A stretch of 64,000 nucleotides of DNA from Candidatus Thorarchaeota archaeon (GTDB lineage Archaea > Asgardarchaeota > Thorarchaeia > Thorarchaeales > Thorarchaeaceae), in the NCBI GenBank assembly GCA_046482545.1, contig JAWOEX010000038.1, positions 1-64,000 of the forward strand. Reading direction: 5' to 3'. Positions within the stretch are counted from its first letter, which is position 1; each line of letters starts with the position of its first letter. The position numbers were made by a program, and so were the translations under genes. The notes under the pieces were generated by a model. It saw nothing but the letters and a program-made list of their open reading frames with translations. It made no database searches and was not told the DNA's origin. Below, piece by piece: positions 14,373 to 45,664 of the stretch.

Positions 14373-14481
14373 TGGTGCCGAGGGCCCGATTTGAACGAGC
14401 GACAACGCGGTTTCAGCTACACGCACACTGAATGTACGTGAGTCTTCAGCCGCGCGATCTCCCAGGCTGATCTACCTCGGC
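14373..14481 (-). tRNA. tRNA-Phe(GAA) with a 32-nt intron at 37/38 (14412-14443)
   Basis: CGCGG-CTGAAG-[intron hairpin]-A-CCGCG, a normal T arm and CCA. The BHB central helix is imperfect. Confidence 0.9.
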
Positions 14482-15744: not shown

Positions 15745-16323
15745 TTAGGTTCCATTATCCTTTGCAGAATCGATTCTGAACCAGTAGGCATGCTCTTCGG
15801 TATTAGTGATTGAAAAACCTGCTTCACGAAGCGCTTGTTCAGTTTCACCTAGAGTTTGGGTTTGATTTCCCATGAGCCCGTATCCCGTCTGCGATATTGT
15901 GCCATCGGGCAGCTCAAAGCGTACCCGTAGTATATGCTTCTCATGTTGGTTACCTATTTCTGCACCCAGTACAGAAAGAACACCATTGGTTGAAAGAGCT
16001 CTGTAAGCTTCTCGAATAACTGCTTTCTTTTTGTTCCAAGTTTGCATATAGGCAAGTGAAAACCAGAGTGAGACTGCGCCGAATGCACCACCCTCAAAGC
16101 ATAATTTGGCACCGTCACAAACAAACCAATTGGTTCGTCCTACAGGATAGATGTATGCCTGCCTGATTTTGTTCAGATGGATGTCTACTGCACATACTCT
16201 TTCGCACCAGATTCTTGAGACAATCCCTTCCCCACCCCCTCCAATATCAAGAATCAAACCGTCATCCGGCAAGCTGGGGAGAGTAATCTTCTGGATTGGG
16301 GTTCGCATCACTTCTGTATTCAT
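15745..16323 (-). CDS. Class I SAM-dependent methyltransferase
   Basis: ILDIGGGGEG and EAYRALSTNGVL. Confidence 0.8.
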   Translation of the reverse strand: MNTEVMRTPIQKITLPSLPDDGLILDIGGGGEGIVSRIWCERVCAVDIHLNKIRQAYIYPVGRTNWFVCDGAKLCFEGGAFGAVSLWFSLAYMQTWNKKKAVIREAYRALSTNGVLSVLGAEIGNQHEKHILRVRFELPDGTISQTGYGLMGNQTQTLGETEQALREAGFSITNTEEHAYWFRIDSAKDNGT

Positions 16324-16413
16324 CCATTCTCTTCCTCACACAGATGAGGGTACTCCACAATTCTTTTAACAGTCCTCTTTGCGAGAATTAAATGCACTTG
16401 GAGTATGAAAAGT

Positions 16414-16519
16414 GGGCCGGTAGTTCAGCCTGGTAGAATGCCTCCTTGGCACTTGTCAAGCGTTAGCTTGATCTCCAAAATGGAGGAGGTCACGTGTTCA
16501 AATCACGTCCGGTCCACCA
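16414..16519 (+). tRNA. tRNA-Ala(GGC) with a 29-nt BHB intron at 37/38 (16452-16480)
   Basis: CCTCC-TTGGCA-[intron]-T-GGAGG. BHB central helix TTGG/CCAA; G3:U70; CCA. Confidence 0.95.
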
Positions 16520-16600
16520 TTAAAAACTTGACAATTTCCGTTTCTTCTTAATCCATCAAAGCTGACAAGACTATTAATTTACAAATCTCAAGGGCAATTC

Positions 16601-16804
16601 ATGCCGATTGTTGAAATCAAGTTATGGACAGGCGTATCTAAAGATGCTGTAGAACAAATCATCCCCGGAGTTACGAAAGTTTTCGTTGGGTTAGGAATTC
16701 CGGAACGAGCGGTCGAAGTTATTGTTCAAGAAGTCCCAAAGACCCACTGGGGGATTGAGGGAAAACCAGCTTCAAAAGTGATGGGTGACGAGAAGCCACC
16801 CTAA
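16601..16804 (+). CDS. 4-oxalocrotonate tautomerase family protein
   Basis: N-terminal Pro, VEVIVQEVPKTHWGIEGK, 67 aa. Confidence 0.88.
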   Translation: MPIVEIKLWTGVSKDAVEQIIPGVTKVFVGLGIPERAVEVIVQEVPKTHWGIEGKPASKVMGDEKPP

Positions 16805-16872
16805 GGGCTTCTTGGATAAACTATCAAATCCATACACTTTGAGTAAATTATTATCTAGAGAATTGAGGGGTC

Positions 16873-17013
16873 GAAGTGGAGGATTTCCGTAAGATTTCAG
16901 ATAAACCGATGGACACGTCGAAGACAGTTCATCTGGCTTCTCTCTTCTCCAACAGTAGGGACTTTTATTGCGCCTGCTTCAAGCAGTTCACTCAATTGTA
17001 AGAAATGTCTCAT
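16873..17013 (+). mobile_element. Putative ends-only mini-element (PATE/MITE-like) of the same IS family (copy 3)
   Basis: The left motif GAAGTG-N10-GTAAGATTTC matches 24233-24258. The right motif 16976-17013 aligns gaplessly with the terminal hairpin of copies 1 and 2 (about 26/38 to copy 2). Confidence 0.45.
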
Positions 17014-17117
17014 AGAAATACATTGCAGCTATATGAATCTATCATCGAACATTCTATTTACTCCTCTTATGTAGGATTCATATACATATCACCTCGGATA
17101 CTTCTACAGTGATTATG

Positions 17118-18405
17118 ATGGTTGATTACAAGGTGAAAGACATGGATTTGGCCGAGGAAGGCAGGTCTCTGATTGAGTATGCAGAGACGCATATGCCGGT
17201 TCTCATGCATTTGCGAGAGAAATACTCAGAGTCGAAACCGCTCGAAGGAATGAGAATCTCTGGCTGTCTTCATGTAACAAAGGAGACCGCCGTGCTTGTA
17301 GAGACACTACGGGCGGTCGGTGCTCAAGTAGCATGGTCTGGTTGCAACCCTTTGTCAACGAATGACAAGGTAGCAGCAGCTCTTGCGGCAAATGACGTCC
17401 CCGTTTTTGCGTGGCACGGGCTTGATACCGAGGACTACTACTGGTGTATCGAACAAACACTCAAGATTGAGCCGACAATGACATTGGATGATGGAGCAGA
17501 TTTGATTTTTACACTGCATAACAAGCATACAGAACTCATTGAGAATCTGTATGGCGGCGCAGAAGAAACAACTACTGGAGTCATCCGTGTCAGAGCAATG
17601 GCAAAAGATGGTGCACTCAAGTATCCAATCATGGCAGTCAACGATGCTGATACCAAGCACCTGTTTGACAATGTATACGGTACTGGACAAAGCTCCTTTG
17701 ATGGAGTGTTGCGAGCATCTGCCATTCTGATAGCCGGGAAGACTGCTGTGATTGGTGGCTATGGGTACTGTGGACGAGGTCTTGCAACCCGAGCTGATGG
17801 TCTTGGGGCAAATGTCATTGTTACAGAAGTGGATCCGGTGAGAGCACTCAAGGCGCGCATGGACGGGTTCAGAGTGATGCCAATGATTGACGCAGCCCCT
17901 GAGGGGGATTTGTTCATCACAGCAACGGGCATGCGAGATGTCATCACTAAGGAGCATATGGAAGTGATGAAAGATGGAGCAATCCTCGGAAATGCCGGTC
18001 ATTATGATGTCGAGGTCAACAAGAATCATCTTGAGGACCTAGCTAAGACCAAGGAAAGGGTAAGACACGCACTTGATGCATACAGACTCAAAGATGGACG
18101 TACGATCTATCTGCTCGGTGATGGACGGCTGGTTAATTTGGTCGCTGCAGAAGGACATCCTAGTGAGAAGCTGGCATTTGTTGCCGCTTCCTAGAAAGGT
18201 CATGGACCTGTCCTTTGCAGCCCAGCTTAACGCAATGCTATGGTTGAAAGAGCGTGGTAAGAATCTGGAACCGGATGTCTATGAATTTCCCAAGGAACTG
18301 GATCGACAGACTGCGAGACAGAAGCTGGAAACCATGGGCATTGACATTGACACACTCAATGCTAAACAGCAAGAATATGCCACTTCATATGCAGAAGGAA
18401 CATGA
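17118..18405 (+). CDS. ahcY: Adenosylhomocysteinase, split by an intron: join(17118..18165,18197..18405), 418 aa
   Basis: GCLHVT, GCNPLST, EETTTG, KHLFDNVYGTGQS, GYGYCGRG, GRLVNL. The spliced junction gives AAEGHPSEVMDLSFAAQ, and the C-terminus ends YATSYAEGT. Confidence 0.95.
18166..18196 (+). other. Bulge-helix-bulge (EndA-type) intron in ahcY mRNA, 31 nt
   Basis: Central helix CUAG/CUAG, bulges UG^A and AA^A, flanking helices GAAGC/GCUUC and AUC/GGU. Removal restores both the frame and the conserved motif. Confidence 0.88.
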
Positions 18406-18510
18406 AAAAGGACGGACAAATAGCTTCTGTCCGCTTGTATGTTGGAAGATGGGCAATTGCATCCAGCTGTAATTCTTTCATCCATCTGATAGAAGGAGAG
18501 GCATCATGCA

Positions 18511-19071
18511 TTGAGCAAGAAATTACTTTTCCTACGACATTCTGAGTCTGAACTGGATTTTAGCATCCCAGCGAGTCAATGGGGTCTTAGTAGGAGGGGT
18601 AGACGCCAAGCCAAGGAGCTGGCTCTATCGGGCTCATTCGATGATGTCGAGTACGTAATCACTTCAGAAGAAAAGAAGGCGCTTCAAACGGCTACACCGA
18701 TTGCAGAACGAAATTCTCTCACTATCTACGAAATGTCGGAATTCAACGAACTCAATCGGGATGTAGCGACACCAGTAACGATAGCTGAGTATGAGGCTGC
18801 CGTAAAGCGAGCGTTGGAACATCCTCATCAAAACATTCACGGTTGGGAACGGGCCTCAAAAGCACTGAAGCGCTTTACACGAGGTGTACATATTACAAAA
18901 AGCGGCGATGGCGAGAGAATCTTGGTTGTATCTCATGGGATTGTGCTTACTCTCTATTTTGGCCTATTGACCAATGAGATGGATAATCTCTACAAACGCT
19001 GGAAGAAGCTGGGTTTCGATGATTGGGGGATAGTAAAAAATGAAAAAGTAGTGAAAGACATTATTCACTAG
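18511..19071 (+). CDS. Histidine phosphatase (PGAM) family protein
   Basis: LFLRHSES, LS..GRRQA, ILVVSHG. Confidence 0.85.
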   Translation: MSKKLLFLRHSESELDFSIPASQWGLSRRGRRQAKELALSGSFDDVEYVITSEEKKALQTATPIAERNSLTIYEMSEFNELNRDVATPVTIAEYEAAVKRALEHPHQNIHGWERASKALKRFTRGVHITKSGDGERILVVSHGIVLTLYFGLLTNEMDNLYKRWKKLGFDDWGIVKNEKVVKDIIH

Positions 19072-19142
19072 GAGAGATAGACTCTACTTTTCCAAATAAT
19101 CTACGCTCAGATTGCTGGTTACTTTACGATTCTCTCCTCCGA

Positions 19143-20396
19143 CTAGGAAGAAATCTCGGCATGCGCTTTAGATGCCCTTTCGTGTTCACCTTCTTTTGCT
19201 CTTTCTTCACTCCTTGCGGCGGGCAAATAAGCCAGAATCGGAAAGAGAATTAAAGATAGAAAGAATGGTGTTAATCTATCGATATTTTCTTCTGCACCCA
19301 ACAAGAAAGCGGCTATTCCACCCAAAACTGAGAACAGACCAGAAAAGGATCTTGCACTCTCTACAACGCCTTGTGCTTCTCCACGTCTTGTGTCTTCGGA
19401 GTGGCCAGCAGCCAGCGAAACTGAAGACACAGAAATGAGTGGCCATATTGGGAAGATCCACACCATAGCTGCACTAATTGGGTGATTTAGAATGCCCAGA
19501 AGGAAGAGCCCAAGATTTCCAAAGATGCCTAGTCTCAATGCAAAAGAATCACCGATGCGATCAGTAAGCTTGCCATAACCAAAGGAACCGATAGCTCCTG
19601 CCAATCCACTAAGTGCACTGATGATACCAATCCAGAAACTCTCCTTTCCATATATCTCATACATCTTTACTTGGAAAAGTGGCAGAAACACTCCACGACC
19701 TACACTGATGAGGAGAATAGCCATTGTAACCTGAAAGAGAACTGGCTTCATATTTCGAAGACCCTCCAAGACACCTCTGCTGGGGGAAGCTTCAGTCTCG
19801 ATGTCTTCCTCTTGAAACAGGATAAGAAAAATCGCCATGGCGATGATGTGGATTGCAGCGGTGAACGTGAATGTAAGATAAAGAGGCCAGATGTCCCAAA
19901 TATAACCAATCAAAAGTCCACCCAACCCCCATCCGGCTGATGAGAATAGGAAGAATGCACCAATATTGCTTGCTCTTTGTTCCTCTTTTTGTTCCATCAG
20001 CGTAATGGCTGCATTACGAACAGGATTGTACAGGGAGGTGAACAAGGAAGCCAACATATAGGCGAAGAGAAGCATCCCTAAATGTAGAATACCTGAACCA
20101 GATGCCAGTTCAGTAAGCGGGAAAGTGATTGTGAACGCTGCCTGTCCTAGCATAGAAAGGGCAAGCAGCTTTTTCCTAGAAGCGAATATGTCACTAATGT
20201 ATCCCCAAACCCAAGAAAGTGAGATTGCTGTTATGGCAACAATGGTTCTACATAAGGAACTAGCTACAAATCCATACAGGTCGTAGACATAGAGGGGAAT
20301 GAACGTAAAGTACAATGACAGAATAAAGCCGCCCGTAATCTGCATAGGAATGAGCGCAAATCCGCTTCTAGACCGAAGAATAGATTTCTCTGTCAT
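19143..20396 (-). CDS. MFS transporter
   Basis: About 12 TM segments; motif A WGYISDIFASRK and YGKLTDRIG. Confidence 0.88.
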   Translation of the reverse strand: MTEKSILRSRSGFALIPMQITGGFILSLYFTFIPLYVYDLYGFVASSLCRTIVAITAISLSWVWGYISDIFASRKKLLALSMLGQAAFTITFPLTELASGSGILHLGMLLFAYMLASLFTSLYNPVRNAAITLMEQKEEQRASNIGAFFLFSSAGWGLGGLLIGYIWDIWPLYLTFTFTAAIHIIAMAIFLILFQEEDIETEASPSRGVLEGLRNMKPVLFQVTMAILLISVGRGVFLPLFQVKMYEIYGKESFWIGIISALSGLAGAIGSFGYGKLTDRIGDSFALRLGIFGNLGLFLLGILNHPISAAMVWIFPIWPLISVSSVSLAAGHSEDTRRGEAQGVVESARSFSGLFSVLGGIAAFLLGAEENIDRLTPFFLSLILFPILAYLPAARSEERAKEGEHERASKAHAEISS

Positions 20397-40865: not shown

Positions 40866-43727
40866 CTAAATCCAATCGCCTGTTTCTAGTTTAGCCGGAA
40901 GATACTCATCAGTGAGGTAGTTAAACCCATGACTTGCGAACGCCTGTATCTCCGCTTTTTCTTTCATCTTGAGCATGAGCTCTAAGTCCCGTACCCATTC
41001 CTTGTTCTTCTGTACGAATGGCTCGTCCAACATCTGTTTAACCCTCCGAATGTCTGAGTCCTCCATCCTGATACGCACCGCTTTCGGGATTTTGTATTCC
41101 TCAAGATCACGGCTCAATACACCCAGAAGTTTCAATTCAGGAGTGGCAATGAATGGCGATTCATAGCTTAACCGTTTGCTGCCCCGCAAGAAGATGGAAT
41201 ATATGTAATGCCCATACGGGTCAGAGTCGACAAGTGCAAATGCTGGAATCTGCAATTCCCTCACCAGCATCTTGAGAAAGGCACGTGTGGCTATGTCACC
41301 AGTACCCTTCCCAGTTAGAATGATACAGGGTTGACGCTCCCAATACTTAGCCTCAGCTAATCTCATCATGGCTGCGTCTTTCTCTGAGAGGATGATAAAC
41401 TCAGCATCACTTTCCACAATTTCAACCTGATCAAGAAAAGGCGTAATAGACCAGCCACCAGTACCCATTTTGGTGAGATCCAGACGGTCACCACCATCTC
41501 GCAGCACAACTCGGCCCATAGCGGAACCTCGCGCTGAAGCAACAACGTGAATACTATCACGTGTAGTCTGGAGCATGGAAGCTACATCTTCAATTGTTTT
41601 GTCGCTATATTTCTGATCTCTGAAAAGGTTCACGTCACTGTAGAAGACTTCTCGTTTCGTAGCGTGGAGATTATCACGCAGCAACTCATATACGATTTCC
41701 ATGACTCTAGCAGTTCGAGTTGCATCAAGAACTGATCCGAGTGAATGATAGGGCCGTGAAATCTTTCGGGTTCCTAGAAGAAGTAAATCGCGAACTTGAT
41801 CCCAAACGATATTGTCGGCTGAACGGCTAGGAATCTCAAAGACTGGACGCCCGGTCATCATAGCTTCATCTAGGACGGTTCGAACTTCATCGACAAGCCG
41901 TTCGCTTGTTTCCTCAGCGCTCAGCGCCACGACTTCCATGGTTTCACGAGTACGAGCAGATTCCTCTTTCTCTTTCTCCTTGGCCGCCTCCATCATCTGC
42001 TCGGTCTCTTTCCAAGACTCTACCATCTGATGGCGGAACTGTCTTACTGAATCAGGTACGTCGAGACCAGAATCCTTCCGTATAATCGATTCTCTTGCCT
42101 CTTTCAGTTTCTTTACAGAAGTACTGACAATCGGGATGCGCGGGCCAGAAACAATCTTCATTCCCTGTTCTTCGACCACTCCACCGCGATCCACAACCTC
42201 CTTGGCAGTTTCGATGAGTTTCTTACCGCCTTTTTCTCCGATTCCATCTACATCCTTAGCCAAATCAGAAGGAGATGCTGACACTATTTTCGGTATAGTA
42301 TCATAACCCTTGGAAATGAGATTTTTTGCGGTCTTCGGGCCAATGCCTTCAAGGTCAGTAAGTTCGACATCATCCAAATCAGCAGCATCGGCTCGTTCAA
42401 AAGCCACAGTTTGCGAAGCTAACTGGACCACCTTGTGGGCGCTCTTCTTTCCTATGCCTTCCACCTCATCGGCAAGTTCATCGGGGTCACAAGCTGCTAG
42501 TTCTGCTATTGAGCTATAGCCTGCTTTTTTGAGAAGATCTGCCGTCTTCGCACCAACGCCTTGCAAATCTACGAGGTCATAATCAGAGACTATCTCCTTT
42601 GCCTGTCTTAACCTAAAGAGCTTCTGAGCAGATGCCACTATATTCTGAGCACCCTTATCTCCTACACCTGTAACGAACCGAGTGAGAGTCGTTGAATCTG
42701 ATGTAGCAATCTTCTCGAGAGTAGCGTATCCAGCCGCTCTGAGATTCTCAGCAGTTTTCGCGCCCACACCATCTAATTGAATCAAATCAAAGGTTTCCTT
42801 GTCCTCTTCGGAGGGTCTGGGTCCTTTCGTCTTTGCAATTTTCTTTGCTGAGGCAACTATGTTTTCGGCACCTTTCCTTCCTACACCATCTACTGAATCT
42901 GACAATTCGTTCGGCATGGTATCGGCAATCTTGAATACGGTATCGTAACCTGCTTCTCTGAGACTTTCTGCTGTTTTTGCTCCCACCCCATCAAGTTCTG
43001 TCAATTCATCGCCAGCAGCTTCTTTCTTGGCGGATTTTGGTTTCTTCTCTCGCCATAGTTTCCTTGCAGATTTCAACATCTGTTCAGATCCCTTCTTACC
43101 CACACCAGGAACAGAAACCAGTTCCTCTGCTTCTGCTTTTGCGACAGATTCTATGGAATCAAAACCAGATTCTATTAGGTTCTCCGCGGTCTTTCCCCCT
43201 ACAGCGTCTAGCTGCTTTAGTTCAGCTATCTCTTTCTTGGGTTTTGGCTTCATCTTCCGCCAGAGTTTTTTTGCTGCTGCCAGAATCTGCTTTGCACCCT
43301 TTCTACCCACACCAGAAACAGATGCCAGCTCTTTCTCGTTTGCATTCGCAATGGCCTCTATTGAATCATAACCAGCGTTTATGAGATTCTCTGCAGTCTT
43401 TCCCCCCACACCATCAAGTTTCGATAGTTTGTTTATTTTTTCCATAGGTTTTGGCCTAATCTCATCCCAGAGCTTTGTTGCCGCTGCCAGAATTTGTTTT
43501 GCCCCTTTCTTGCCCACACCAGGAACAGAGGCAAGCTCTTTTTTATTTGCATTTGCAATGGCCTCTATTGAATCAAAACCAGATTCTATTAAGTTCGCCG
43601 CGGTTTTTTTTCCCACACCATCAAGTTCTGTCAGTGACACCGTTGAATTCCTTCCGTTCTGTTCAGTCTTTGGTTTATCATGTTCTAGTAATGTTGATTG
43701 ACGAAACTCAGGTCTCCCTGGCGTCAT
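40866..43727 (-). CDS. top6A: DNA topoisomerase VI subunit A with seven N-terminal (HhH)2 domains
   Basis: ATKREVFY (catalytic Tyr), SEKDA, TGKG, DSDPYG, KAEIQA. The N-terminus has repeats of L..LDGVG.KTA.NL...GY. Confidence 0.93.
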   Translation of the reverse strand: MTPGRPEFRQSTLLEHDKPKTEQNGRNSTVSLTELDGVGKKTAANLIESGFDSIEAIANANKKELASVPGVGKKGAKQILAAATKLWDEIRPKPMEKINKLSKLDGVGGKTAENLINAGYDSIEAIANANEKELASVSGVGRKGAKQILAAAKKLWRKMKPKPKKEIAELKQLDAVGGKTAENLIESGFDSIESVAKAEAEELVSVPGVGKKGSEQMLKSARKLWREKKPKSAKKEAAGDELTELDGVGAKTAESLREAGYDTVFKIADTMPNELSDSVDGVGRKGAENIVASAKKIAKTKGPRPSEEDKETFDLIQLDGVGAKTAENLRAAGYATLEKIATSDSTTLTRFVTGVGDKGAQNIVASAQKLFRLRQAKEIVSDYDLVDLQGVGAKTADLLKKAGYSSIAELAACDPDELADEVEGIGKKSAHKVVQLASQTVAFERADAADLDDVELTDLEGIGPKTAKNLISKGYDTIPKIVSASPSDLAKDVDGIGEKGGKKLIETAKEVVDRGGVVEEQGMKIVSGPRIPIVSTSVKKLKEARESIIRKDSGLDVPDSVRQFRHQMVESWKETEQMMEAAKEKEKEESARTRETMEVVALSAEETSERLVDEVRTVLDEAMMTGRPVFEIPSRSADNIVWDQVRDLLLLGTRKISRPYHSLGSVLDATRTARVMEIVYELLRDNLHATKREVFYSDVNLFRDQKYSDKTIEDVASMLQTTRDSIHVVASARGSAMGRVVLRDGGDRLDLTKMGTGGWSITPFLDQVEIVESDAEFIILSEKDAAMMRLAEAKYWERQPCIILTGKGTGDIATRAFLKMLVRELQIPAFALVDSDPYGHYIYSIFLRGSKRLSYESPFIATPELKLLGVLSRDLEEYKIPKAVRIRMEDSDIRRVKQMLDEPFVQKNKEWVRDLELMLKMKEKAEIQAFASHGFNYLTDEYLPAKLETGDWI
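43020..43640 (-). repeat. Three similar tandem repeats of about 207 bp encoding (HhH)2 units 1-3 of Top6A
   Basis: Repeated strings such as GAATCAAAACCAGATTCTATTA and GCAATGGCCTCTATTGAATCA. Confidence 0.75.
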
Positions 43728-45664
43728 CAGTCACCACCTGTGGCAACATCTGCTACCAAATCGCTACCTTCGGTATCCGTTTTCGTATCCTCTTCTTCCT
43801 GCCCCTTATCGAAACCAGAAATTGAATCTCTGATTCGTTGAGCTATTGCTTCAGCATCATACTTCTGCTTACCCTCTGCGTCATTAACGATGCTCACTAA
43901 GCTATCCGCAAACTGGTCAGCATACATAGCGAGTACACCTGCTCGCTTTGCTTTCCTCCTTGCCTTCTCTTTCTTAGACATGTAACGCCTGAAGGATCTG
44001 CCGGCTTCTTCAAGTGCTAGCTTGATTTCCTTCAAGAGAACTTCATCTTCAGCCAAAGCCTGTTTGCTTTGACCTTTGAACATCACGTGCACGTAGGCAC
44101 CACAGACATGGATGAATACCAACAATGGGCCCTTTGGCAGGCCGTTGTCAAAGGTATCAAGTTTGTAGTTCTTCCAGTTTACCATTGCAGTTGCTTTCCA
44201 AGTTGCACAATCGCTGTTATCACGCATCTTGGGCACACGGTTGACAAATCGCTTCAATACCACGGGCGAAGACGACGCGGGTTTGATGTCTCCACCGTAA
44301 GCTATGCAGACCTCGACCGAGAAAGAAAGCCCCTTGCCAGACGTAGGACTTCGTGTAACAGCTGTAATGAAGTCAGGATTGTATGCCATCTGTACAGTTT
44401 GTTCAAAAACCTCTTCGCCCACAGGTACTACAGTATCCGTAGGTGGTGCGTAGTAATCTTCTGACGAAAATGATCTGTAGAGAAGTTCAACCTGCAATTT
44501 CGATAAATTGGACGGATCTTGACCAGAATCAATGATCTTGATACCCCGGTCTTCCAAAGCATCATTGGTATTCGAGATGATGTCTTTTGCCTTGCTATTG
44601 CTCATTCTCACGAATGCATTCGTCAAAAATGATTGAACAGTCCCATGCTCGGTCTCTCTGAGAATATCCTGAAATTCTCCAATGCGGATGCTGGCAGGGT
44701 GAGGTTTCGCATACTTGGGTTCTTCCGGAAATGTCTTGACTCGACGAGGGTAAATATGAAGGTCACCGTAAGGATCGATGAATACAATCGTAACATGAGA
44801 ATTCAGGAGAGAAGCCATTTCTGCATACTCGTCAGCATAGCCCCTACGATACTGAATATTCAGATAGTGCAGCTTGATATATGTACCCTGTTTGAACTGC
44901 AAATCCATCTCCTTGGGACCCGCAACGTAGTCTTTCGTATTCGCTGTCGTTGTATAATAATCAGCAACTATTGCTTTATCTGCCTTGTAATTCTTCGATA
45001 TTGTAAAAATCGGTTTTCCCGTTGTATTCTGAGCATCACTAAATGCAGAAGGAGCACCAAATCCTTGGCTACCACGAGTTTGTCTCAACTTCTCACTCTT
45101 GCTTGATGCAAGATAAATCCCGAATTTTTCGAGGTCGGAAGGCACCATACCGATGCCATTGTCAAAAATGGTGAACTCGTATACCTTGAACCCATCTTCG
45201 TCATCAATTGGGATTAGGTTGGGCATCTGGATCTCTTCAATCTGTATGACGACTAGAGGTTCTTGTTTATCAATCAGCTTCTTGAAAGGTTTGATAAAAG
45301 CCTTAAAATCTTTAATCCGTTTCTCCAAGTCCTCCTTAGGATAAGGTGGGATATTGACTTTCTTTCCCGCAAGAGCCTTCTTCTCTAATTCTTTGCTCTT
45401 AGATATGGTATCGACAAGTTCGGATTCTAGGCTTTCCACTACTTCTGCAACAAGTTCGGGATTGAGCTGGTCACTGAGTTCCGGTTTCTTTTTCGCTCGC
45501 CACCACCAGCTCTCAATGGCATCTATTGAGTTATCAAGAAACTCGATTGCATACTGTGTATGCTTATTGAGCCCAGTTTCGAAGCCAACTAATTGGGTCC
45601 GTTTGCGCATGAACTTAGCTATAGTTCCTTGCTTGATGTCACCAGTTTCTTGGCCACTTGCCAT
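43727..45664 (-). CDS. top6B: DNA topoisomerase VI subunit B
   Basis: EFLDNSIDA, DNGIGM, QTRGSQGFG, RFVNRVP, QSKQAL. An insertion of about 80 aa follows the N box. Confidence 0.95.
   Translation of the reverse strand: MASGQETGDIKQGTIAKFMRKRTQLVGFETGLNKHTQYAIEFLDNSIDAIESWWWRAKKKPELSDQLNPELVAEVVESLESELVDTISKSKELEKKALAGKKVNIPPYPKEDLEKRIKDFKAFIKPFKKLIDKQEPLVVIQIEEIQMPNLIPIDDEDGFKVYEFTIFDNGIGMVPSDLEKFGIYLASSKSEKLRQTRGSQGFGAPSAFSDAQNTTGKPIFTISKNYKADKAIVADYYTTTANTKDYVAGPKEMDLQFKQGTYIKLHYLNIQYRRGYADEYAEMASLLNSHVTIVFIDPYGDLHIYPRRVKTFPEEPKYAKPHPASIRIGEFQDILRETEHGTVQSFLTNAFVRMSNSKAKDIISNTNDALEDRGIKIIDSGQDPSNLSKLQVELLYRSFSSEDYYAPPTDTVVPVGEEVFEQTVQMAYNPDFITAVTRSPTSGKGLSFSVEVCIAYGGDIKPASSSPVVLKRFVNRVPKMRDNSDCATWKATAMVNWKNYKLDTFDNGLPKGPLLVFIHVCGAYVHVMFKGQSKQALAEDEVLLKEIKLALEEAGRSFRRYMSKKEKARRKAKRAGVLAMYADQFADSLVSIVNDAEGKQKYDAEAIAQRIRDSISGFDKGQEEEDTKTDTEGSDLVADVATGGD

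What the first reader, a model, noticed from the sequence alone, without database searches (positions are those of the whole stretch)
18150..18210. tRNA-type (bulge-helix-bulge) intron inside the ahcY protein-coding gene of a probable Asgard archaeon
Seen: ahcY breaks in the conserved GHPSEVMD motif through a 31-nt insert containing an in-frame UAG. The RNA folds into a strict BHB. The outer helix is AUC/GGU and the 4-bp central helix is CUAG(18160-63)/CUAG(18191-94). The 3-nt bulges are UGA and AAA, and the inner helices are GAAGC/GCUUC and GGCA/UGCC. Cutting after the second base of each bulge (the EndA rule) removes 18166-18196 and yields CCT AGT GAG GTC ATG = P-S-E-V-M, giving a normal 418-aa enzyme. 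The size matches the 29- and 32-nt tRNA introns nearby. Knowledge: archaeal mRNA introns are rare, with crenarchaeal cbf5 the classic case; I know of none reported in ahcY. Inference: EndA/RtcB-type mRNA splicing is required to make SAH hydrolase. This could couple the methylation cycle to tRNA-splicing capacity, analogous to ligase-dependent HAC1/XBP1 splicing. Annotation pipelines would miscall the gene as a pseudogene.
Basis: partly seen in the sequence, partly recalled or inferred. Interest (0 to 1): 0.93.

Follow-up and report, generated by a model that had tools for sequence, protein, structure and literature searches.

The report
Mobile tRNA-type intron in Asgard ahcY
The only S-adenosylhomocysteine hydrolase gene of this Thorarchaeia (Asgard) archaeon is broken by a 31-base insert shaped like the introns that archaea cut out of tRNAs, so its messenger RNA very probably has to be spliced; near-identical strains lack the insert, and the DNA around it carries the marks of recent exchange, which points to how such introns spread.

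Summary
Observation confirmed. Removing 18166-18196 at the predicted EndA cuts restores GHPSEVMD and a 418-aa AhcY, the genome's only copy. The insert is real: two independent assemblies are 100% identical. Inserts of 20-59 nt sit at the same base in 13 of 87 Thorarchaeia genomes and two other Asgard families, with exon-intron compensatory pairing, and exon 2 is under purifying selection. EndA alpha/beta and RtcB are present. Correction: here the strict outer helix is not the predicted minimum-energy fold; the motif is relaxed. Splicing itself was not seen; the one RNA-library contig crossing the site is unspliced, as is a tRNA-intron control. New: strains 97-98.5% identical lack the intron and differ at 16 of 99 bases around it (2 of 246 just upstream). 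In relatives, displaced ahcY 3' ends begin 7-13 nt before the intron site, and a free-standing LAGLIDADG gene often follows ahcY. The intron looks like a passenger of 3'-end replacement homing, not a regulator; the HAC1/XBP1 analogy is unsupported. The scan found this same-site intron before on other DNA (Thorarchaeota, Atabeyarchaeia); in the papers searched, cbf5 is the only coding-region case.

The parts
17118..18165 (+). ahcY exon 1 (codons 1-349 plus the first base of E350); alternative start ATG 17115
   Evidence: Pfam AdoHcyase and AdoHcyase_NAD; 347/349 identical to intronless P0001
18166..18196 (+). 31-nt BHB-type intron, shifts frame and holds in-frame UAG 18192-18194
   Evidence: same-site inserts in relatives
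18197..18405 (+). ahcY exon 2 (rest of E350 to stop), C-terminal domain
   Evidence: Pfam AdoHcyase 225-290; pN/pS 0.02-0.23
18160..18163 (+). exon strand of the 4-bp central helix (pairs with 18191-18194)
   Evidence: pair probability 0.94-0.96; second pair U-A in 8, C-G in 11, mismatch in 1 of 20 alleles
18191..18194 (+). intron strand of the central helix
18164..18166 (+). 5' 3-nt bulge; predicted cut after 18165
   Evidence: cleavage rule from PMC2738675
18195..18197 (+). 3' 3-nt bulge; predicted cut after 18196
18167..18190 (+). intron hairpin (5 bp + 4 bp, 5-nt loop)
   Evidence: three pairs with compensatory changes, 100% paired in 10 alleles
18157..18159 (+). 5' strand of the 3-bp outer helix (pairs with 18198-18200); conserved as possible pairing, not in the predicted ground state here
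18144..18221 (+). long exon-exon helix (18144-18156 with 18210-18221) that clamps the splice site, built from synonymous positions
   Evidence: duplex -22.9 kcal/mol versus -11.6/-11.7 in intronless close strains; intron-bearing alleles mean -19.9 versus -15.0 (rows are kin, not independent)
18112..18500 (.). divergence (recombination / co-conversion) tract against intronless close strains, peak at 18112-18240
18153..18161 (+). codons G346-P348: the place at which displaced ahcY 3' ends begin in relatives (inferred breakpoint)

Best explanation
It is a protein-spliced archaeal pre-mRNA intron. The ahcY transcript folds a 4-bp helix between two 3-nt bulges; the host's (alpha-beta)2 EndA cuts after the second base of each bulge, RtcB joins the exons (and probably circularises the 31-nt intron), and the joined mRNA encodes a normal 418-aa AhcY. 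Unspliced mRNA gives a 358-aa product lacking the C-terminal domain. Shown: sequence, boundaries, conservation of structure, selection on exon 2, enzymes in the genome. Inferred (about 0.9): that splicing happens. The intron is best read as a near-neutral passenger that is gained and lost by recombination of the ahcY 3' end. Shown: polymorphism among close strains, a divergence peak centred on the site, displaced 3' ends and an adjacent LAGLIDADG gene in relatives. Inferred (about 0.5): that this free-standing LAGLIDADG enzyme cuts intronless ahcY near codons 346-349 and drives the exchange, the intron being one of several ways to be immune. This genome keeps the intron but has no endonuclease gene at the locus.
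For: Exact match of homology-defined ends with EndA cuts. Real DNA: GCA_051748335.1 and SRR31818008 are 100% identical with the insert. Same base in 13 of 87 genomes of the class from 9 genera, in Atabeyarchaeia (34 nt) and in a third Asgard family (20-22 nt). Lengths 20-59 nt, sequence varies, helices are kept; exon-intron pair U-A/C-G covaries. All 20 Thorarchaeia/Atabeyarchaeia alleles hold an in-frame stop. Exon 2 pN/pS 0.02-0.23, like intronless pairs 0.04-0.14. Single ahcY, two EndA paralogues with Y/H/K triad and a CSL-like loop in the alpha subunit by inspection, intact RtcB; Asgard EndA is (alpha-beta)2 with the L1 loop for relaxed motifs (PMC5829648). Mobility: intronless strains 98.5% identical in exon 1 but 86% in its last 65 nt and 93% in exon 2; 16 of 99 differences, 15 synonymous; the 39 nt around the site are closest to an intron allele of another genus (3 differences); intron state is not clustered on the exon-1 tree; 10 of 17 displaced 3' ends start at codons 346-348, none earlier; LAGLIDADG gene or remnant directly behind ahcY at 12 loci, fold confirmed (pLDDT 94.5; best PDB hits all LAGLIDADG); no tyrosine integrase on the ahcY contigs of five genomes tested.
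Against: No spliced joint seen: the only RNA-library contig across the site (X1, 18058-18208, depth 2.6) keeps the insert; the tRNA-Ala intron control is also unspliced there, so the test has little power. Strict outer helix is not the predicted ground state in this allele. For mobility: this genome has no endonuclease gene or displaced end at the locus; 9 of 12 endonuclease-adjacent ahcY copies are intronless; in the same-genus genome G002 the displaced end starts near codon 380, not 347; the near-site similarity between intron alleles and part of the synonymous excess could come from selection on RNA structure; the same site in three Asgard families also fits an old intron with many losses.
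Confidence: 0.88

Rival explanations
1. Same intron and splicing, but ancient and inherited vertically; the patchy pattern comes from repeated loss when an intronless 3' end replaces the resident one. The endonuclease has nothing to do with the intron.
For: Same base in three Asgard families with a shared CCAG/CTGG helix type; most endonuclease-adjacent alleles lack the intron; in the wider 99-nt window both alleles are about equally far from congeners (16-18 differences), so direction is not resolved.
Against: 31-nt introns of different genera differ by only 2-3 bases while exon-2 synonymous sites are near saturation; G074 has an intron-bearing gene followed by an intronless displaced end, the expected fossil of a gain; none of 10 displaced ends that begin at the site carries an intron.
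Confidence: 0.4
2. No RNA splicing: the enzyme is made in two pieces (stop at the UAG, restart at the AUG 8 nt later) or by ribosomal bypass or frameshift over the hairpin.
For: An AUG (M352) lies just after the insert; pipelines call two ORFs; only unspliced RNA-library sequence was seen.
Against: Insert lengths of 20-59 nt in all three frames, one third-family allele in frame without a stop; fixed 4-bp helix and 3-nt bulge geometry with exon-intron covariation, which restart or bypass would not need; E350 and V351 codons are conserved although restart at M352 would skip them.
Confidence: 0.06
3. The intron is a regulatory switch tying AhcY to splicing capacity, like HAC1/XBP1.
For: A competing hairpin disfavours the strict motif here and could tune splicing.
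Against: Absent from most relatives and from near-identical strains with the same neighbours; many other alleles fold the strict motif with no competitor; no conserved regulatory feature found.
Confidence: 0.05
4. The breakpoint at codons 346-348 is an attachment site for an integrase-borne element, and the intron shields the site or rides on the element.
For: A fixed start of displaced 3' ends and variable cargo between copies are what site-specific integration leaves.
Against: No tyrosine integrase in G098 or G086, none on the ahcY contigs of G083, G081, G071; the smallest cassette (G002) holds only the LAGLIDADG gene; several inserts carry the usual chromosomal neighbour of ahcY, which fits copying from a donor chromosome.
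Confidence: 0.15
5. Assembly artefact or dead gene.
For: None beyond the broken frame.
Against: Identical insert in two independent assemblies and an RNA-library contig; purifying selection on exon 2; only copy.
Confidence: 0.01

Closest known systems
cbf5 pre-mRNA intron of Crenarchaeota (Watanabe 2002; Yoshinari 2006; Yokobori 2009, PMC2738675)
   Same: Short (16-44 nt there, 20-59 nt here), BHB or relaxed BHB, cut between the second and third bulge base, inserted after the first base of a codon in a conserved motif, host has hetero-oligomeric EndA, patchy among relatives.
   Different: Different gene and phylum; splicing shown by cDNA for cbf5, not here; the cbf5 intron was steadier than rRNA introns among A. 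pernix isolates, whereas this one is present or absent among strains about 98% identical and lies in a recombination tract; no adjacent endonuclease was reported for cbf5.
BHB intron in the 5' UTR of Haloferax volcanii HVO_1309 (PMC7714728)
   Same: EndA-processed intron in an mRNA.
   Different: Outside the coding region; proven by circular RNA and in vitro cleavage.
Asgard tRNA introns (bioRxiv 10.64898/2026.10.13.758758) and the many tRNA introns of this genome
   Same: Same size class, motif and enzymes; gained repeatedly.
   Different: In tRNA genes; that paper found no general route of arrival. No tRNA intron in this genome matches the ahcY intron in sequence.
Mobile endonuclease ORFs with replacement C-termini in fungal mitochondria (Allomyces atp6, Glomus atp6/cox2/nad3; PMC3630166)
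   Same: LAGLIDADG gene behind a replaced 3' gene end, old end left downstream.
   Different: Here archaeal chromosomes, endonuclease on the opposite strand, 620-1270 aa with N-terminal HTH repeats, activity untested, and absent from this genome's own locus.
Collaborative homing: F-CphI and the psbA group I intron of cyanophage S-PM2 (PMC6083498)
   Same: Free-standing endonuclease next to a gene whose intron would interrupt the target.
   Different: There a self-splicing group I intron, an Endo VII-type enzyme and proven cleavage and immunity; here a protein-spliced mini-intron, LAGLIDADG fold, immunity unproven, and most endonuclease-bearing loci have no intron.

Membership tests
Archaeal BHB pre-mRNA intron (cbf5 type) | Insert interrupts an otherwise intact, selected reading frame | tested here: met
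Archaeal BHB pre-mRNA intron (cbf5 type) | 4-bp central helix flanked by 3-nt bulges (strict or relaxed), cuts after bulge base 2 give the exact exon junction | tested here: met
   (relaxed in the predicted ground state)
Archaeal BHB pre-mRNA intron (cbf5 type) | Structure conserved by compensatory change | tested here: met
Archaeal BHB pre-mRNA intron (cbf5 type) | Host encodes hetero-oligomeric EndA and RtcB | tested here: met
Archaeal BHB pre-mRNA intron (cbf5 type) | Spliced mRNA or circular intron seen in RNA | tested here: inconclusive
   four metatranscriptome contig sets, no joint; one unspliced contig; tRNA control also unspliced
Archaeal BHB pre-mRNA intron (cbf5 type) | Cleavage by EndA in vitro | not testable with these tools
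   needs experiment
Mobile endonuclease ORF with replacement 3' end | Free-standing homing-endonuclease gene next to the gene end | tested here: not met
   absent at this genome's locus; met at 12 loci of relatives
Mobile endonuclease ORF with replacement 3' end | Displaced native 3' end downstream | tested here: not met
   absent here; present in relatives, 17 scored
Mobile endonuclease ORF with replacement 3' end | Co-conversion tract around the target | tested here: met
   direction and cause not resolved
Collaborative homing (intron plus free-standing endonuclease) | Endonuclease cuts the intronless allele near the insertion site and the intron blocks it | not testable with these tools
   indirect only: breakpoints 7-13 nt upstream, 0 of 10 displaced ends with intron, but 9 of 12 endonuclease loci intronless
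Group I / group II self-splicing intron or other Rfam RNA | Ribozyme core or Rfam match | tested here: not met
   31 nt; Rfam finds only the tRNA in 16000-19200

The most novel reading that the evidence does not exclude
Protein-spliced BHB mini-introns in Asgard mRNAs spread in trans: a free-standing LAGLIDADG endonuclease cuts intronless ahcY at codons 346-349, the break is repaired from a donor 3' end, and the intron travels as the immunity element, even into genomes that never keep the endonuclease gene. This would be a working route of intron gain in protein genes of the closest prokaryotic relatives of eukaryotes, caught segregating within one species.
Probability: 0.4. Interest if true: 0.88.

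Novelty: new variant of a known kind. Interest (0 to 1): 0.7.

Why it matters
In the papers searched, cbf5 is the only archaeal coding sequence with an EndA-type intron, and how such introns arrive is stated to be open (bioRxiv 10.64898/2026.10.13.758758). This locus adds a housekeeping enzyme in Asgard archaea and, more usefully, gives a natural pair of alleles with and without the intron in near-identical strains, a candidate breakpoint mapped to a few bases, and a candidate enzyme. Both splicing and spread can be tested in vitro without a culture. It also shows that gene callers split such genes, so Asgard metabolic reconstructions can miss enzymes.

Tried and rejected
RNA: laying four metatranscriptome contig sets gave no joint; X2-X4 have no cover across the site, which is not evidence. 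A protein search for short junction-spanning products of transcripts found none. Genome-wide motif scan for other frame-breaking BHB introns: the first script timed out; top short candidates read by eye were operon junctions (topoisomerase VI B/A at window 43693-43730, transaldolase/next gene) or lay in open frames; not validated by homology, so other relaxed introns are not excluded. cbf5 of this genome has an open 335-aa frame. Origin of the intron from a tRNA intron of this genome: only chance 13-17-nt matches. Pattern hits G096, G028, G030, G073 and several Loki-type hits are chance matches outside ahcY or were not followed. Full-length structure model of the endonuclease was poor (pLDDT 50); the domain model was used. 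Sequence search of PDB with the endonuclease profile found nothing; Pfam LAGLIDADG_3 hits only 3 of 31 members. One search used mis-set columns and is superseded. The 'far' identity column is invalid (unaligned indels). An in-frame stop in every intron is not universal: the third-family alleles break that rule.

Full report
1. Observation. The window gene at 17118-18405 is ahcY (Pfam AdoHcyase and NAD domain; closest solved structures are archaeal SAH hydrolases such as 7R37). Its frame ends at UAG 18192-18194. Only this deletion and its one-base equivalent restore the motif. BHB geometry is common by chance, but a given start and length carry it with probability 1.6e-6 to 5.5e-5, and the ends here are fixed by homologues. 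The intron lies after the first base of E350, three codons behind H347; the matching Glu and His backbone groups bind the adenine in S. acidocaldarius SAHH (PMC10978960; the residue match is my inference from the motif). Exon 2 encodes the C-terminal domain.

2. Fold. Central and inner helices are well formed (0.94-1.0), but the 3-bp outer helix is out-competed by a hairpin at 18197-18209; forcing the strict form costs 5.8-7.2 kcal/mol. A longer exon-exon helix (18144-18156 with 18210-18221) clamps the region. Many 32-nt alleles fold the strict form at above 0.9. The genome has two EndA paralogues and RtcB; the alpha subunit shows the Y/H/K triad and a CSL-like loop by inspection, and Asgard EndA is reported as (alpha-beta)2 with the loop that accepts relaxed motifs (PMC5829648). 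A relaxed motif is therefore no obstacle; cbf5 introns are mostly relaxed as well (PMC2738675).

3. Organism and spread. Relatives of the same family are named Ca. Thorarchaeota. An insert at the same base occurs in 13 of 87 genomes of the class, in 9 genera (12 true hits plus a 59-nt allele), in further metagenome contigs, in two Atabeyarchaeia (34 nt) and in all three genomes of a further Asgard family (20-22 nt). Two allele types exist: CUAG/CUAG (28-31 nt) and CCAG/(A,C)UGG (20-59 nt). Across 20 alleles three central pairs are kept in 19-20 cases, the second one switching U-A to C-G between exon and intron; the fourth is G-C in 13 and G-A in 7. In ten 28-31-nt alleles 98% of cells pair, with three compensatory pairs, above shuffles and slid controls (kin are not independent). 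Intron-bearing genes always use an AGY serine codon, intronless ones do not. Exon 2 is under purifying selection (pN/pS 0.02-0.23) and this is the only ahcY. The gene is alive and needs the insert removed.

4. RNA. Twelve salt-lake metatranscriptomes hold part of the stretch. Four were laid as contigs: no joint; one 151-nt contig (X1) keeps the whole insert; a contig over the tRNA-Ala gene (X4) keeps its intron too. Precursor or DNA cannot be told apart, so splicing remains inferred.

5. Close strains. A search with exon 2 found an intact 419-aa protein 99% identical in exon 1. Its contigs (SRR29060563, GCA_053582745.1) and GCA_964448665.1 have the same neighbours and no intron; GCA_051748335.1 and SRR31818008 have the intron and are 100% identical to the window. 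That excludes an artefact. Intronless strains are 96-98.5% identical in flanks and exon 1, but 86% in the last 65 nt of exon 1 and 93% in exon 2: 16 differences in the 99 coding bases around the site, 15 synonymous, against 2 in the 246 bases upstream (binomial P about 2e-12 at 1.5%). The 39 bases round the site are closest to the intron allele of another genus (3 differences), and the intronless allele's are closest to that genus's intronless allele (5 differences). Some of the synonymous changes build the exon-exon helix (-22.9 versus -11.6 kcal/mol), so selection on structure contributes, but the tract runs on to about 18500. On an exon-1 tree intron state needs about five changes per allele type and is no more clustered than shuffles; four well-supported clades of close relatives are discordant.

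6. A recombination hot spot. Many Thorarchaeia carry extra copies of the ahcY 3' end 0.7-8 kb downstream or on other contigs. Of 17 scored by eye, 10 begin at codons 346-348, 7-13 nt before the intron site, 7 begin later (353-391), none earlier, and none of the ten carries an intron. In G074 an intron-bearing gene is followed by an intronless displaced end. A 620-1270-aa ORF lies on the opposite strand directly behind the ahcY stop at 10 loci in 9 genomes (three partial or decayed, two cut by contig ends) and on 2 metagenome contigs. It has two LAGLIDADG-like motifs with acidic residues; its C-terminal domain models at pLDDT 94.5 and matches I-Tsp061I, PI-SceI, I-DmoI and other LAGLIDADG enzymes. 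The family also sits behind other conserved genes, in one case (argF) with a displaced 3' end. No tyrosine integrase was found at these loci. This is the layout of fungal mitochondrial mobile endonuclease ORFs (PMC3630166), and an intron next to the break recalls collaborative homing (PMC6083498). Limits: this genome has neither endonuclease nor displaced end at ahcY; only 3 of 12 endonuclease loci carry the intron; in G002 the displaced end starts near codon 380; no activity was tested.

7. Mechanism. Shown: anatomy, conservation, selection, enzymes, polymorphism, tract, relatives' cassettes. Inferred: EndA cuts, RtcB joins, ribosomes that arrive first stop at the UAG (0.88). Inferred with less weight: the intron moves with 3'-end replacement driven by the LAGLIDADG enzyme (about 0.5; strict intron-confers-immunity version 0.4), against old intron with repeated loss (0.4); these two are not exclusive. 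A regulatory role is unlikely (0.05).

8. Novelty. Papers searched name cbf5 as the one coding-region case and a Haloferax 5' UTR intron; none reports ahcY. The library lacks most subscription papers. This scan had already noted the same-site intron in a Thorarchaeota and in Atabeyarchaeia, other ahcY introns, and mini-intron plus endonuclease pairs at other genes; those notes are leads, not support. Verdict: real, very probably spliced, works like the cbf5 intron and meets every testable feature except RNA proof; a new variant because of its apparent mobility. Interest 0.7.

Noticed in passing
window 40866-43727 (-): Topoisomerase VI A (Spo11-like) ORF of 953 aa with a long N-terminal run of helix-hairpin-helix-like repeats; overlaps the stop of topo VI B, with a hairpin at 43693-43730 that mimics a BHB but is an operon junction.
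   Followed up: partly
window 14373-14481 (-) and 16414-16519 (+): tRNA-Phe (32-nt intron) and tRNA-Ala (29-nt intron); the Ala intron varies by 2-3 bases among close strains.
   Followed up: partly
L096/L174 (G066:C115:3620-3702): 59-nt ahcY intron with a branched two-hairpin interior, possibly a second intron nested in the first.
   Followed up: no
L168-L170 (G392-G394): A further Asgard family has 20-22-nt introns at this site plus a second stop-bearing insert about 10 nt upstream, leaving a micro-exon.
   Followed up: partly
L133-L158: The HTH-repeat plus LAGLIDADG family is in 52 of 87 Thorarchaeia genomes, often several copies, convergent behind conserved genes (argF with displaced 3' end, scpB, Lsm, rubredoxin, a mutase); Pfam misses nearly all.
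   Followed up: partly
G000:C28:226664-227203: This genome's own distant member of that LAGLIDADG family, about 1.6 kb from a tRNA-Glu gene.
   Followed up: no
L115 (G083:C254): Three displaced ahcY ends in tandem with unannotated 270-580-aa ORFs between them: successive insertions building an island.
   Followed up: partly
L125, L089, L086, L106 and several displaced ends: An intronless P-S-S-V-M variant of the motif recurs, including beside an endonuclease gene; it could be a recoded, resistant target.
   Followed up: no
window 18330-18405: The last 20 codons of ahcY in this species differ strongly from congeners (78% aa in exon 2 versus 97% between them) yet are shared with the intronless close strains: an older 3' replacement or fast change.
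   Followed up: partly
L059 (Desulfurococcales MAG): Apparent 17-nt insert at the site is an assembly gap of N with a duplicated 7-mer, not an intron.
   Followed up: yes
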